From: Heterodontus francisci
Lineage: Eukaryota
Direction of reading: 5' to 3'
NCBI RefSeq assembly: GCF_036365525.1
Contig: NC_090421.1
Location: 2,119,982 to 2,183,981 of the forward strand
DNA: 64,000 bases
Made by a program: the position numbers and the translations under genes
Shown here: positions 2,323 to 64,000 of the stretch, piece after piece
Position numbering within the stretch: position 1 is the stretch's first letter
How the letters are laid out: the number at the start of each line of letters is the position of its first letter
Notes under the pieces: model-generated
What the model was told of the DNA's origin: nothing
Seen by the model: only the letters and a program-made list of their open reading frames with translations
Database searches by the model: none

Positions 2323-2591
2323 TATAAAACATGTCATTACTACAAAAGCAGAATACTGCGAATGCAGAGAATCAGATCGATAAACAGAAAATGCTGGAAA
2401 TACTCAGCAGGTCAGGCACCATCTGTGGAGAGAGAAACAGGTCATCCAACTGAAACATTAACTGTTTCTCCCTCCACAGATGCTACCTGACCTGCTGAGT
2501 GTTTCCAGCATTTACTGTTTATATTCCGTGTGCATTACTGTCTGTTTTCCTCTCTCACATTACAAGGTTTGCTTGGATACTTTCAACTTAC

Positions 2592-4701
2592 CTAATAGAA
2601 CAGCTAGAATCCCCACTATTCAGTGCCTGCACCCAGTTCAATCACCTTCCTCCCACAGAAGCTCATCTTCTGTTCCTCAAAGTACTGACAAAGAGCCAGA
2701 CCCTGAAAACATCACATATTCATGTTAGAATTAATTCATTTAGAGGGTATACGAACATACGAATTGGGAGCAAGAGTAGGCCACTCGGCCCTTCGAATCT
2801 GCTCTGCCGTTCACTACGATCATGGCTGATCTGATTGTAACCTCAACTCCACATTCCTGCTACCCCCCAATAACCTTTAACCCCCTTGCTTATCAAGAAT
2901 CTATCTACCTCTGCCTTAAAAATATTCAAAGACTCTGCTTCCACTGCCTTTTGAGGACCCCTCTGAGAGAATAAGTTTCTCCTCATCTCTGTCTTAAATG
3001 GGCGACCTCTTCTTTTTAAACAGTGACCCCTAGTTCTAGATTCTCCAAGGAGAAACATCCTTTCCACATTCTACCTGTCAAGACCCCTCAGGATCTTATA
3101 TGTTTCAATCAAGTCGCCTCTTACTCTAATTTCCAGCGGATACAAGCCTAGCCTGTCCAACCTGTTCCTCACAAGACAGCTCACCACTCGTTACATTTTG
3201 CCAACCAGAAAATGATCCATTTATGCCTACTCTCTGCTTCCTGTTAGCCAACCAATCTTCTATCCAGGCCAATATGTTGCCCCACTACACCATGAGCTTT
3301 TATTTTCGCAATAACCTTTGATGTGGCACCTTATCAAATGCCTTCTGGAAATCTAAGTACAGTACATCCAGTTTCCCTTTATCCACAGGACATGTTACTT
3401 CTTCAAAGAACTCCAATAAATTGGTTAAACATGATTTCCCTTTCACAAAACCGTGTTGACTCTGCCTGATTACCTTTACTTTGTCTAAATGCCCTGCTAT
3501 AACGTCTTTAATAATAGCTTCTAACATTTTCCCGAAGACATATGTTAAGCTAACTGGCCTGTAGTTTCCTGCTTTCTGTCTCCTCCCTTTTTGAATAAAG
3601 GAGTTACATTTGCTATTTTCCAATCTAATGAACCTTCCCCGAATCTAGGAAATTTAGGAAACTTAAAACCAACACATCAACTATCTCACTAGCCACTTCT
3701 TTAGGACCCTAGGATGAAGTCCATCAGGACCCGGGCACATGTCAGCTCACAACTCAAACAATTTGCTCAGTATCACTTTCCTGGTGATAGTAATTTTCAA
3801 GTTCCTCCCTCCCATTTCCCTGACACAGCTATTTCTGGGATGTTACTTGTATCCTCTATAGTGAGACAGATGCAAAATATCTGTTCATCTGCCATCTCCT
3901 TACTTTCCATTATTAATTCCCCAGACACATTTTCTATAGTGATGTGAAGCACTGCAGAACCAACAGACAGTGCCAGAATACAAACGAGAAAGAATGAAAG
4001 GACTTGCATTTCTATAGCACCTTTCATGACCTCAGGATGTCCCAAAGCACTTCACAGCCAATTAAATACTTTTGAAGTGCAGTCACTGTGGAATGTAGGG
4101 AACGTGCAGCCAATTTGTGCCCAGCAAGCTCCCACAAACAGCAACGTGACAAATGATCAGATAATCTGTTTCATTAAGTGTTGGTTGAGGGGAAAATATT
4201 GGCCAGGACACTGAGGATTGACTCCCCTAACCTTCTTCAAATTAGTGTCGTGGGATCTTTTACATCCACTCGAGATGGGGAGACTCAGTTTAATGTCTCA
4301 TCTGAAAGACAGCACCTCCAATTGTGCAGCACTCCCTCAGTACTGCACCGGAGCGTCAGCCTGGATTTTATACTGAAGTCTCTGGAGTGGAACTTGAACC
4401 CACAACTTTCCTCACTCTGAGGGAAAAATACAGCCAACTAAGCCAAGCTAAACTATCAGCAAAGCAGATGAATAAATGTGACTGGCTTGATTTTCCGCCA
4501 TCCAATACATTTGCAGGCCATTAGACTTACAGCATCCCAGACTGCAGCAGCAACTCCCAGATCAGCACTGAAGTTCTGCGTGATCTTTAAAACATGTCCA
4601 CAAAACTCATAACTGCTCTCCTCTGTATAATAGTCTGAAAAGAGACCATCATCCACGGGAAAAACACTGCACAAATGTTCTTCCACCTGGCTTTGCATCA
4701 T
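2592..4701 (-). CDS. EEF1AKMT3: EEF1A lysine methyltransferase 3, partial copy: exon 1 4701-4531, exon 2 2702-2592 (111 nt, 1-bp deletion); exon 3 would fall in the gap
   Basis: Exons match the intact copies except for a synonymous TTC/TTT change in exon 1 and one missing C in exon 2 (ctattcagt vs ctattccagt). This contig-end segment has many 1-bp homopolymer deletions, so the frameshift may be a sequencing error. Confidence 0.8.
2750..3935 (-). mobile_element. CR1 LINE, internally deleted, in the intron between EEF1AKMT3 coding exons 1 and 2
   Basis: [45 protein letters not shown]. Confidence 0.9.
3985..4445 (-). mobile_element. SINE with L2-like tail (copies about 24435-24898 and 44829-45292)
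   Basis: Tail reads gtgctatagaaatgcaagtc on the minus strand; B-box-like gggttcaagttcc near the 5' end. Family not identified. Confidence 0.55.
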
Positions 4702-5334
4702 CCTCCCTAACTGGATTATCTTTCACTGACCAATGGGTACTTTCCAGTCTCCACTGCCTCTGTCGTGATTGCAGGATGAATTTGTTTCAAGATGTGTTTC
4801 CTTCTGTGAAAAAGAAAGAAAACAGGGGTAAAAACTTGCAACGCTGTGCTTTGAAAGGGGGAGACATTTAAAAATCTTCGAGCTGATGGCATGTGCAGCA
4901 CCACGGGGGTTGTTGGGTGGGCGGAGTCCATGTTTAGCTGCTAAGGTGCCTGTGCCTTTCAGGCCACTGCTCAGGTACTTCCTGCAATAAAGAGATCTAA
5001 TCAGGCAGATCCTGAAGCACTGAGTATCTAAAGTGCTGAAGGAAAGTACTGTGGACTGGCAGTGCTTGTAAATTCCGAGCTCTGCCCTGGGTGAGGCCAG
5101 GTGAGCAAAGTCAGAAAAACAGCAGGAAATGACTGGCTTTCTTTGAAAATCTGACACCTTGAAGTGTGATGGACGCACACGAGCTGCAAGATTTTGTTGG
5201 AAAGTTTGCAGCATAGCTCACAAAAGGCTCATAATCATAAATCCTTTTCATTTAATACACTATTTATGTTTTGATTTAGAAAAGTAAAGACAATTTTTAT
5301 GTTTAAATACATCAGGATCACTCTTCCATCACAG

Positions 5335-61708: not shown

Positions 61709-63969
61709 TCACTGCTGTCCGGCACTTGGTTCTTTTTTGGTCATTTTGTACAGGTTGATATTTTGCTCTTCGTTCCTGTGAACAAGTTGGCACTGAAAAT
61801 GCTGAGGCAGGATCTTCTCATAGAAAGAGACAGTCTCGTGCTCCCTCCGCATTTTGGAAGAGAGATAAATGGTGCCTCTCTGCGCACTGAGATGCTGCAG
61901 TGTCTGGACGAGTGAGGCGTAGGTCTCAGGGAGATATACAATGTCGGAACCCAGAACAATGTCGTAGTCAATGGGAAACCGACTGTGGTCACAGCCCCAG
62001 GACAGGGCACAGACCTGGGAACGATGTGCCCAGGAAGAGGGGATGTTGGCTGAGACGTTGTTCTCTATTTGCTTCAAAGTATGTGGTAGGTCTGTGATGG
62101 TTACATCGCCACCTGATGAATACAAAGAAAGAATGACATTTCTCCGTTTACAGTTTCCTTTGAAGTTTTTGGAGTCAGCCATGTTAAAAAGTCTCCAAAC
62201 TCAACAACAACTTTATATAGTGCCTTTAACATAGTAAAACATCCCAAGGCTCTTCACAGGAGCGATTATCAGACAAAATTTGACACTGAGCCGTACAAGG
62301 AGATATTAGGACAGATGACCAAAAGCTCAGTTAAAGAGGAGAGAGAGAGAGCAAGAGGCAGAGAGGCTTAGGGAGGAAATTCCAGAGTTTGGGGCCCAGG
62401 CAGCTGAATGGCACCACTGCCAATGATGGAGCGATGGAAATTGAGAAGGGTTGTAGGGCTGGAGGAGGTTAAAGAGATAGAGAGGGAGTGAGGCCAGGGA
62501 GGGATTTGAACAGGCAGATGAGAGTTCTTTCTCTGGGGAAACCACCCACTTAACCCAAGTCCAGAAAGGGGAGGCATAGGTTTAACAGAGTCAAAGCTTC
62601 GAGACTCCCAGGCTTAACCATGCTGACGTTTAACCAGATGAAGGATTAGCCAGATGCAGTCTACTAGCACAGAGCACAGGTCGGCTTTTCCCTGCTCATC
62701 CAGCAAGGACCACCCTGCCGGTTAGGGTGCTGGCTTCCAGGTTTATTTGGAATTGAGTGGAAAGAATCCCAGCTCCCACTGACAGATCCACCTTTTTTGA
62801 GGTTTCATTAGGCTGGCTAGTCAATCTTCAGCAATGCCACAGACTGGCCTAATTCAGGTATCGGATTAACAAAGCTGCTTCAGGGAGGGTTTAGTTGGTT
62901 CCAGACTTCCACTGCCAGCTGTGTCACCTTGGAGCCATCTCTACCCCCAAAGCGATCCTGCGACACATCACAGGCAGCTCGAGTCCAGAGCAAAAATGTG
63001 CCAAGGAGAGAGAATCATTCCAGCATGTCTGCTCCAAGTAGATTCACCAAAATGGAGCGTTACACGAAAGCTAAGTAAATGAAACTAAAAGACAAAAGAC
63101 ATTTTGTGTTTAAATTCTGAAATGGAGGAAGTGTCAGGGTTAATACAGATCTACCAGGGAACTTGTAAGCCTCTTGTTTTGAAGGCACTGACTCCTTACT
63201 CAGGCATGTCTCCAAACAACCTCCAGTACCTCACACTCAAGGGGCCATCTTCATGCAAAGCTCAGACAGTGTGTTAGACGCAGGCTATTTGAGTGTGAGG
63301 AGCAGGTCCTGTTCCTGGATAGCAGCCAGGAGCAGAAATCCTGGCTGATTTTCCTTCCTTAGTCCAGAGGCACTGAGACGAATTGTAGCACCCGTGGCTG
63401 AGATCAGTAACCTCAGCAAGAATCCACAGATTGAATCTGGGACCCTTCTAGTCCGTATAGCTCAACAACATAACCAGCTACGCCGACAGAGGAATGATGA
63501 TAATAATGTGTAGAATGTGTGGATCATCAGAAGGGAACTATCTAGTAGCAAGCAAACATTTCCTTTATTGTACCCCTCCCCCCATCAAGATAAAACATGT
63601 CATTACTACAAAAGCAGAATACTGCGAATGCAGAGAATCAGATCGATAAACAGAAAATGCTGGAAATACTCAGCAGGTCAGGCACCATCTGTGGAGAGAG
63701 AAACAGGTCATCCAACTGAAACATTAACTGTTTCTCCCTCCACAGATGCTACCTGACCTGCTGAGTGTTTCCAGCATTTACTGTTTATATTCCGTGTGCA
63801 TTACTGTCTGTTTTCCTCTCTCACATTACAAGGTTTGCTTGGATACTTTCAACTTACCTAATAGAACAGCTAGAATCCCCACTATTCCAGTGCCTGCACC
63901 CAGTTCAATCACCTTCCTCCCACAGAAGCTCATCTTCTGTTCCTCAAAGTACTGACAAAGAGCCAGACC
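61709..63969 (-). CDS. EEF1AKMT3: EEF1AKMT3 copy, exons 2 (63969-63858) and 3 (62112-61709); exon 1 lies beyond the window end
   Basis: Same exons and splice sites at offset +40821. Confidence 0.92.
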
Positions 63970-64000
63970 CTGAAAACATCACATATTCATGTTAGAATTA

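What the first reader, a model, noticed from the sequence alone, without database searches (positions are those of the whole stretch)
2323..64000. Recent tandem amplification in which EEF1AKMT3 is the only intact gene
Seen: at least four EEF1AKMT3 copies (two complete in the window, two cut by the gap or window end) in near-identical 20.4-kb units, each with exons, splice sites and a polyA candidate; the promoter is present wherever the window covers it. The neighbour TSFM is cut after exon 2. Known: EEF1AKMT3/METTL21B is a seven-beta-strand methyltransferase for eEF1A Lys165, single-copy in human between METTL1 and TSFM. Inference: an amplicon that keeps exactly this gene and its promoter may reflect dosage selection on translation-elongation methylation, or may be the birth stage of a lineage-specific METTL21B-like family.
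Basis: partly seen in the sequence, partly recalled or inferred. Interest (0 to 1): 0.8.

Follow-up and report, generated by a model that had tools for sequence, protein, structure and literature searches.

The report
Shark tandem array of methyltransferase gene
A horn shark chromosome carries at least four near-identical head-to-tail copies of a 20-kb block with one whole protein-methylating gene; it looks like a real, recent, ordinary copy-number expansion, with no sign yet that selection drove it.

Summary
From 2324 to 64000 lie 3.02 periods of a 20.4-kb unit, 99.93-99.95% identical by substitutions. They carry four EEF1AKMT3 copies (two complete, one cut by the gap, one by the window end). 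The protein equals a named horn shark (Heterodontus francisci) protein and is the TSFM-linked orthologue. The array is probably real: three periods carry interleaved private variants and distinct minisatellite maps, which two alleles cannot supply, and two annotated horn-shark models splice across the new junction. The 13-N gap looks like a Bionano overlap, so copies across it may be double-counted. Dosage selection is unsupported. A short three-exon gene is what a 20-kb duplication keeps whole, and the data have no power to show selection. The unit also keeps the TSFM promoter and exons 1-2, giving TSFM-EEF1AKMT3 chimeras. 'Birth of a family' is weakened: sharks and rays already hold a large, old EEF1AKMT3-like family (11 further horn-shark proteins, 51-61% identical). 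Orthologues lie on X-sized or X-homologous chromosomes in five elasmobranchs; X status in horn shark is unresolved. Verdict: an ordinary tandem segmental amplification with interesting context.

The parts
1..2309 (.). Piece of the same unit left of the gap (matches 8987-11294); probably the overlapping end of the neighbouring contig
   Evidence: one poly-C indel against period 1; shares period 1's private G (position 129 = 9115)
2310..2322 (.). 13-N gap, the size Bionano scaffolding inserts between overlapping contigs
   Evidence: PMC7649008 passages; origin of this gap inferred
2324..22768 (.). Period 1 of the array; its first 3.6 kb carry 15 private small indels (low-coverage contig end, inferred)
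22769..43162 (.). Period 2
43163..63589 (.). Period 3
63590..64000 (.). Start of period 4
2592..4701 (-). EEF1AKMT3 copy A: exon 1 (4531-4701) and exon 2 (2592-2702, 1-bp deletion at 2621); exon 3 cut off by the gap
20888..25154 (-). EEF1AKMT3 copy B, complete CDS: exons 24984-25154, 23037-23148, 20888-21291
   Evidence: identical to named protein P0002
41282..45548 (-). EEF1AKMT3 copy C, complete CDS: exons 45378-45548, 43431-43542, 41282-41685
   Evidence: CDS identical to copy B
61709..63969 (-). EEF1AKMT3 copy D: exons 2-3; exon 1 beyond the window end
20479..20484 (-). AATAAA polyadenylation candidate of copy B
27301..27800 (.). CpG-rich promoter-like region of copy B, with CCAAT- and GC-box-like words; donor-like site at 27389 suggests a non-coding first exon spliced to the acceptor at 25256 (inferred)
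13791..15945 (-). TSFM exon 1 (15883-15945) and exon 2 (13791-13946) with a CpG-rich 5' region, period 1
   Evidence: (PF25025)
34189..36343 (-). TSFM exon 1 (36281-36343) and exon 2 (34189-34344), period 2; its donor faces the next unit
54612..56766 (-). TSFM exons 1-2, period 3
25184..27718 (-). Splice sites used by junction-crossing annotated models: acceptor 27718 (P0121); acceptor 25256 and alternative donor 25184 (P0001)
   Evidence: both named proteins reproduced exactly from window exons
16789..16860 (+). Decayed tRNA-Gly(TCC) copy (also 37189-37260 and 57610-57681)
   Evidence: 47 bits, four non-standard pairs marked; no cloverleaf, z -0.44
31199..33998 (.). 32-bp minisatellite of about 2.8 kb with a 146-bp unique spacer at 32790-32935 (other arrays 10739-13602, 51592-54421, 1754-2309); candidate junction zone
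31031..34092 (+). 92-bp direct repeat (31031-31122 and 34001-34092, 97.8% identical) bracketing the minisatellite; other copies of this element in the unit are 80-90% alike
17038..17550 (+). LINE-type reverse-transcriptase fragment (others 23692-24126 and 30443-30679, minus strand)
   Evidence: PF00078

Best explanation
A real, recent, in-place tandem segmental amplification at the ancestral EEF1AKMT3-TSFM locus of the horn shark, most likely a nearly neutral copy-number expansion. SHOWN: unit structure; intact identical copies; a new adjacency joining TSFM intron 2 to DNA upstream of the EEF1AKMT3 promoter; a full-length TSFM annotated on the same 37.75-Mb sequence. INFERRED: step 1, one ectopic exchange between repeats in TSFM intron 2 and upstream of the EEF1AKMT3 promoter (the junction zone 27800-34190 holds a 2.8-kb minisatellite and a 92-bp direct repeat) made the first duplicate. 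Step 2, unequal crossing-over between 20-kb units raised copy number, and exchange or gene conversion keeps them alike. EEF1AKMT3 stays whole because it is short and lies between the breaks. Each unit can add one eEF1A methyltransferase gene dose. Each junction also lets the TSFM promoter drive chimeric RNAs that end early or lack the SAM-binding exon, so they are probably by-products.
For: Three periods differ at 18 substitution sites whose private alleles interleave (10 pattern changes among the 15 sites kept after dropping 3 period-1 sites in the error-rich zone). Minisatellite maps differ by whole 30-64-bp repeat blocks in periods 2 and 3. A diploid single-copy locus offers only two versions. 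No gap lies inside 2323-64000. Named models P0121 and P0001 join TSFM exon 2 to acceptors across the junction and are reproduced exactly. Full-length TSFM P0128 lies on the same 37,754,575-bp sequence as P0001, P0002 and P0121. Pairwise divergence of 0.049-0.074% is below the epaulette-shark diversity of 0.2% (PMC10587355 passages). The horn-shark protein has a short terminal branch (0.057) in the orthologue clade.
Against: No read depth, long reads or optical map could be examined. The array touches a 13-N gap, and gaps between duplicates are a listed mark of false duplication (PMC9516828 passages). 15 of 18 substitution sites cluster in 4.5 kb (permutation p 5e-5), which could reflect conversion but also consensus collapse in assembly. 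The RNA support behind P0001 and P0121 was not seen, and back-splicing from one copy could mimic P0001. Breakpoints cannot be placed, because no single-copy flank is in the window. Neutrality is a default, not a tested result.
Confidence: 0.62

Rival explanations
1. Dosage selection: extra EEF1AKMT3 copies are favoured because more eEF1A Lys165 methylation helps, for example under stress.
For: Both complete copies are intact with promoter-like DNA. In mammalian cells K165 methylation is inducible under ER stress and affects translation (PMC5416902 passages). This gene family has expanded before in sharks and rays.
Against: No power to see purifying selection. Gene size explains why it alone is whole. 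The TSFM 5' end is co-amplified. Substrate and K165 were not tested in shark.
Confidence: 0.12
2. Largely an assembly artefact: alleles and erroneous reads unrolled in tandem at a single-copy or two-copy locus.
For: 13-N gap with about 9 kb of implied overlap. 15 private indels at the start of period 1. About 16 kb of each period is almost invariant.
Against: Three interleaved sequence types and three minisatellite maps. The new junction recurs three times inside one gap-free stretch. Annotated models splice across it. The artefact signs are confined to the left edge.
Confidence: 0.1
3. Sex-chromosome amplicon: the locus is X-linked, sharks lack chromosome-wide dosage compensation, and the array restores or raises male dose or acts as a germ-line amplicon.
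For: Orthologous EEF1AKMT3 or TSFM lie on sequences of 28.81 Mb (white shark), 16.41 Mb (sawfish), 16.39 Mb (white-spotted bamboo shark), 73.08 Mb (devil ray) and 103,180,129 bp (electric ray). These match the X size limits (16.4-28.8 Mb; 45.0-73.0 Mb) and, exactly, the X-homologous electric-ray chr12 in bioRxiv 2025.02.26.637739. The shark X is homologous to part of human chr12 (PMC10620051). No chromosome-level compensation (PMC12318234).
Against: The horn-shark sequence is 37.75 Mb, outside the preprint's 16.4-28.8 Mb although that species is in its set (the whale-shark 12.2-Mb sequence is outside too, so the range may be loose). Matching by length is indirect. No expression data. An X array doubles in females as well.
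Confidence: 0.07
4. Seed of a new diverging paralogue family, repeating the older chondrichthyan expansion.
For: 66 of 95 tree rows form a chondrichthyan paralogue clade (SH-aLRT 99), so duplicates of this gene have been retained before.
Against: Array copies have identical proteins and appear to be homogenised. Nothing shows divergence has begun.
Confidence: 0.05
5. The junction products matter: TSFM exon 1-2 chimeras (N-terminal leader plus EF-Ts_N domain) have a function, or a mitochondrion-targeted methyltransferase is made.
For: TSFM exons 1-2 splice in frame to the acceptor at 25256, in the same frame as the methyltransferase ORF. P0001 carries both Pfam domains.
Against: A TGA 10 codons before the ATG interrupts that frame in 3 of 3 copies examined. 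P0001 skips exon 2 with motif I. P0121 ends after 108 aa.
Confidence: 0.04

Closest known systems
Human METTL21B/EEF1AKMT3 (PDB 4QPN; eEF1A Lys165 methyltransferase)
   Same: Best PDB match, E 2e-85, against 2.4e-41 for METTL21A. Motif I, post I, motif II and DXXY are intact.
   Different: Four or more tandem copies here. Substrate not tested. A METTL1 neighbour could not be demonstrated in the unit.
Tandem segmental duplication / multi-allelic copy-number arrays (general knowledge: units of 1 kb or more at 90% identity or more, spread by unequal crossing-over)
   Same: Unit size, identity, head-to-tail order, one whole gene plus a truncated neighbour, repeat-rich junction, chimeric junction transcripts.
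   Different: Variation between individuals not shown; breakpoints not mapped.
Chondrichthyan EEF1AKMT3-like paralogue clusters (named database proteins)
   Same: Same Pfam family and motifs; many copies per chromosome (9 horn-shark clusters on one 131-Mb sequence, 15 sevengill clusters on one 87-Mb sequence among the 120 of 269 hits listed).
   Different: Old and diverged (51-61% identity to the window protein), a separate clade on other chromosomes. The array is a young expansion of the TSFM-linked orthologue.
Bionano 13-N overlap duplications (BiSCoT, PMC7649008)
   Same: 13-N gap with the same unit sequence on both sides; one side error-rich.
   Different: Explains only the left edge, not the three periods inside the gap-free stretch.

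Membership tests
EEF1AKMT3/METTL21B orthologues | Methyltransf_16 domain with motif I, post I, motif II and DXXY | tested here: met
   PF10294 E 1.5e-33; [14 protein letters not shown] and DIVY conserved
EEF1AKMT3/METTL21B orthologues | Closer to METTL21B than to METTL21A, C or D | tested here: met
   PDB bit scores 289.5 against 145.3, 96.3 and 71.1
EEF1AKMT3/METTL21B orthologues | Orthologue clade and synteny with TSFM | tested here: met
   9-row elasmobranch clade, one row per species (SH-aLRT 96), apart from the paralogue clade (99), in a quick midpoint-rooted tree without outgroup; TSFM exons adjacent
EEF1AKMT3/METTL21B orthologues | METTL1 head-to-head upstream | tested here: inconclusive
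   Short ORFs at 27644-27742 and 27583-27780 gave no informative hit; no METTL1 sequence was available for a direct comparison
EEF1AKMT3/METTL21B orthologues | Methylates eEF1A Lys165 | not testable with these tools
   Needs an enzyme assay or MS
Tandem segmental duplication | Unit of 1 kb or more, 90% identity or more, head-to-tail | tested here: met
   20.4 kb; 99.93-99.95% by substitutions
Tandem segmental duplication | More distinct versions than two alleles can give | tested here: met
   Three interleaved variant sets and three minisatellite maps
Tandem segmental duplication | Read depth proportional to copy number; variation among individuals | not testable with these tools
   No reads available
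False duplication (heterotype or homotype; PMC9516828) | Gap between the duplicates | tested here: inconclusive
   Met for 1-2309 against period 1; not met among periods 1-4
False duplication (heterotype or homotype; PMC9516828) | Half or very low read depth; discordant read pairs | not testable with these tools
   No reads available
X-linked ampliconic gene | Located on the X chromosome | tested here: inconclusive
   Orthologues on X-sized or X-homologous sequences in five species; the horn-shark 37.75-Mb sequence lies outside the published range
X-linked ampliconic gene | Testis- or sex-biased expression | not testable with these tools
   No expression data
Amplicon under dosage selection | Fewer coding changes than neutral expectation, or a sweep signal | tested here: inconclusive
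   0 changes between B and C against 0.34 expected

The most novel reading that the evidence does not exclude
An X-linked, selectively maintained EEF1AKMT3 amplicon in a lineage with an ancient X and no chromosome-wide dosage compensation. It would be gene-by-gene dose adjustment or a germ-line amplicon, the latest round of a recurrent shark-and-ray expansion of METTL21B-like enzymes, with junctions one stop codon away from a TSFM-leader-methyltransferase fusion.
Probability: 0.08. Interest if true: 0.7.

Novelty: new member of a known kind. Interest (0 to 1): 0.3.

Why it matters
As it stands, this is an ordinary kind of event, a young tandem copy-number expansion. I found no paper on it in four searches, though the database already holds its gene models. 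It gives a natural dosage series for an enzyme known only from mammalian cell work, testable by ddPCR and MS. It may sit on the ancient elasmobranch X, where dose is uncompensated. The side result may matter more: sharks and rays carry ten or more METTL21B-like paralogues per species in the best-sampled cases, with intact motifs and unknown substrates. For annotators, the gap edge and the junction-crossing models warn that copy counts and isoform names at this locus are unreliable.

Tried and rejected
METTL1 remnant: a short plus-strand ORF at 27644-27742 and an overlapping frame looked, from recall only, like a decayed METTL1 first exon. PDB, ESM Atlas, Pfam and the representative library (one uninformative unnamed hit) gave no support, so it is not claimed. 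Transposition to another chromosome away from TSFM was considered because 37.75 Mb exceeds the published X range. It was rejected because full-length TSFM is on the same sequence; a move of the whole block is not excluded. The tRNA as a second intact gene was rejected as decayed. Copy A as a pseudogene was rejected as a probable contig-end error (15 private indels in 3.6 kb; later only homopolymer-length changes). Accelerated protein evolution was not seen. Folding the 92-bp repeat showed no structure above shuffles. The bacterial promoter scan is irrelevant to this genome. Accession-level copy counts could not be obtained (service unavailable). Supplement searches for tsfm, mettl21b, eef1akmt3 and mettl1 in PMC12318234, PMC11406177 and PMC10620051 found nothing. 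Table 2 of the bioRxiv preprint (X sizes per species) is in supplements I could not see and bears on the X question. Because of 90% clustering, the protein searches cannot show whether other sharks have a similar young array.
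Full report
1. Observation. Self-alignment shows head-to-tail repeats at offsets of about 20.4 and 40.8 kb. Periods begin at 2324, 22769, 43163 and 63590, which makes 3.02 periods up to the window end. Bases 1-2309 are a further piece of the unit, separated by exactly 13 N. On the minus strand each unit holds, in order of transcription: a CpG-rich promoter-like region (27301-27800); EEF1AKMT3 exons of 171, 112 and 404 nt with GT-AG sites; an AATAAA about 400 nt past the stop; a decayed tRNA-Gly(TCC) on the plus strand; TSFM exons 1-2 with their own CpG-rich start; and a 2.8-kb 32-bp minisatellite. 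A Pfam scan of 116 of 116 stop-to-stop ORFs of 58 aa or more in 13604-31186 found the TSFM N-terminal domain, the methyltransferase, three reverse-transcriptase fragments (one below its cut-off) and three other sub-cut-off matches. Shorter exons would escape this scan.

2. Identity. Exon 3 is 100% identical to named Heterodontus francisci (horn shark) proteins. Copies B and C encode exactly the 228-aa P0002. Its best solved relative is human METTL21B, 4QPN (E 2e-85), and the family motifs named in PMC5416902 (passages) are intact. I built a quick IQ-TREE tree of 95 named proteins chosen. Unnamed rows, most tetrapods and the paralogues of several sharks and rays were left out; support is SH-aLRT only, with midpoint root and no outgroup. 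The protein falls in a 9-row, one-per-species elasmobranch clade (96) beside bony-vertebrate EEF1AKMT3, on a short branch of 0.057. It is the TSFM-linked orthologue and shows no acceleration. Activity on eEF1A K165 is inferred from the human enzyme.

3. Real or artefact? For an artefact: Bionano scaffolding writes a 13-N gap between overlapping contigs and so duplicates the shared region (PMC7649008 passages). The piece left of the gap shares period 1's private allele at its one diagnostic site, which implies about 9 kb of overlap. The first 3.6 kb of period 1 carry 15 private small indels, 13 of them deletions, including the frameshift in copy A exon 2; this looks like a thinly covered contig end. 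Gaps between duplicates are a listed mark of false duplication (PMC9516828 passages). Counts across the gap may therefore be one too high, and copy A's frameshift is probably an error. Against an artefact for the rest: 2323-64000 has no gap. The three periods differ at 18 substitution sites; after dropping 3 period-1 sites in the error zone, the private alleles of the remaining 15 switch between copies 10 times. The minisatellite maps differ by whole repeat blocks, privately in periods 2 and 3. Two alleles cannot give three interleaved versions. Two named horn-shark models also splice from TSFM exon 2 across the junction into the next unit: P0121 to an acceptor at 27718, and P0001 to 25256, then from a donor at 25184 to exon 3. 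Both are reproduced exactly from window exons. I did not see their RNA support, and back-splicing could mimic P0001. I put the chance that the array is real at about 0.9.

4. Age and turnover. Pairwise substitution divergence is 11/20,375, 15/20,280 and 10/20,231 (0.049-0.074%). At the epaulette-shark rate of 7e-10 per generation (PMC10587355 passages) this is 0.35-0.53 million generations if copies evolved apart. But 15 of 18 sites fall in 4.5 kb around intron 1, the promoter and upstream DNA (p 5e-5), and the other 16 kb hold 3 sites (about 0.01% pairwise, my arithmetic). All values are at or below the order of allelic diversity in that shark (0.2%). The simplest reading is a young array, homogenised by exchange, that has absorbed allelic variants in one patch; consensus collapse in assembly is the alternative.

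5. Mechanism. Full-length TSFM (P0128) is annotated on the same 37,754,575-bp sequence as the array proteins, so the amplification is in place. The new junction must lie between the TSFM exon 2 donor (34189) and the DNA upstream of the promoter (about 27800). That zone holds the minisatellite, a 146-bp spacer found once per unit and a 92-bp direct repeat at 97.8% identity, against 80-90% for other copies of that element in the unit. I infer one ectopic exchange there, followed by unequal crossing-over; the breakpoint cannot be placed without the flanks. The gene with its promoter spans about 7.3 kb, so it is what a 20-kb duplication keeps whole. Zero coding differences between B and C are uninformative (0.34 expected). 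The unit also amplifies the TSFM promoter and exons 1-2. Spliced to 25256 they are in frame with the methyltransferase ORF, but a TGA 10 codons before the ATG interrupts it in 3 of 3 copies examined. The bamboo-shark isoform P0006 reads through the matching stretch. The annotated chimeras end early or skip motif I, so I read them as by-products.

6. Context. A search with a divergent shark paralogue returned 269 proteins, of which 120 were listed. These include 11 further horn-shark clusters (9 on a 131-Mb sequence) and 15 sevengill clusters on an 87-Mb sequence; some may be isoforms. The horn-shark ones are 51-61% identical to the window protein and keep motif I and DXXY. In the tree, 66 of 95 rows form a chondrichthyan paralogue clade (99) with shark and ray members in several subclades. 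A lineage-specific family therefore already exists and is old. Orthologous EEF1AKMT3 or TSFM lie on sequences of 28.81, 16.41, 16.39 and 73.08 Mb and 103,180,129 bp in white shark, sawfish, white-spotted bamboo shark, devil ray and electric ray. These match the X size limits and, exactly, the X-homologous electric-ray chromosome in bioRxiv 2025.02.26.637739 (abstract, passages, sections 20 and 21). The shark X is homologous to part of human chromosome 12 (PMC10620051 passages) and lacks chromosome-level dosage compensation (PMC12318234 passages). Against this, the horn-shark sequence (37.75 Mb) lies outside the preprint's 16.4-28.8 Mb, as does the whale-shark one (12.2 Mb), and the per-species table was in supplements I could not see. 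X linkage here is likely but unresolved.

7. Literature. Searches on METTL21B/EEF1AKMT3 (30 of 171 listed), EEF1A lysine methyltransferase with shark and expansion (1 of 1, unrelated), mettl21 with shark terms (20 of 2,135 listed, none containing mettl21; a weak test, since any two terms sufficed) and METTL21B-TSFM chimeras (12 of 2,000 listed) showed no report of this array or of the shark family. PMC8662637 (passages) treats METTL21B as vertebrate-only and does not mention sharks. PMC11406177 was seen only as a listing and a supplement search. Most subscription papers are outside the library.

8. Verdict. Observation confirmed; interpretation partly supported. This is a probably real, young tandem amplification of the orthologous EEF1AKMT3 locus, best explained by recombination and drift (0.62). 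Dosage selection (0.12), artefact (0.10), X-amplicon function (0.07), new family (0.05) and functional chimeras (0.04) are the rivals. It is a new member of a known kind, with interest 0.3. The boldest reading, a selected X-linked amplicon, has probability 0.08 and interest 0.7 if true.

Noticed in passing
Named proteins P0036, P0104, P0130-P0236: Large, old EEF1AKMT3-like paralogue family in sharks, rays and chimaera, clustered on one large chromosome per species, with intact motifs and unknown substrates; no paper found.
   Followed up: partly
P0191 and P0203 (sevengill shark, 12.4-Mb sequence): A cluster of 15 member sequences at 90% identity or more, which may be another recent amplification of a paralogue, or isoforms.
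   Followed up: no
window 34189 to 27718 and 25256: Annotated horn-shark models splice across the unit junction; TSFM exons 1-2 are in frame with the methyltransferase ORF except for one TGA.
   Followed up: yes
P0008 and P0010: In sawshark and devil ray the EEF1AKMT3 protein is annotated as an isoform of TSFM, suggesting EEF1AKMT3-to-TSFM read-through transcripts in elasmobranchs.
   Followed up: no
window 27583-27780, plus strand: Short ORFs facing away from the EEF1AKMT3 promoter, where METTL1 would start in the human order; resemblance to METTL1 is recalled only, and four searches gave no support.
   Followed up: partly
window 4660-9115 and equivalents: 15 of 18 between-period substitution sites cluster in 4.5 kb; gene conversion or assembly consensus, unexplained.
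   Followed up: partly
window 32790-32935: 146-bp AT-rich spacer splits the minisatellite into two halves that appear to use different repeat variants; may mark a hybrid array.
   Followed up: partly
window 27787-28635 and 37822-38632: Inverted pair of LINE fragments, 852 bp at 85.7% identity, about 9 kb apart.
   Followed up: no
window 16789-16860: tRNA-Gly(TCC) copy with decayed stems, amplified along with the unit.
   Followed up: yes
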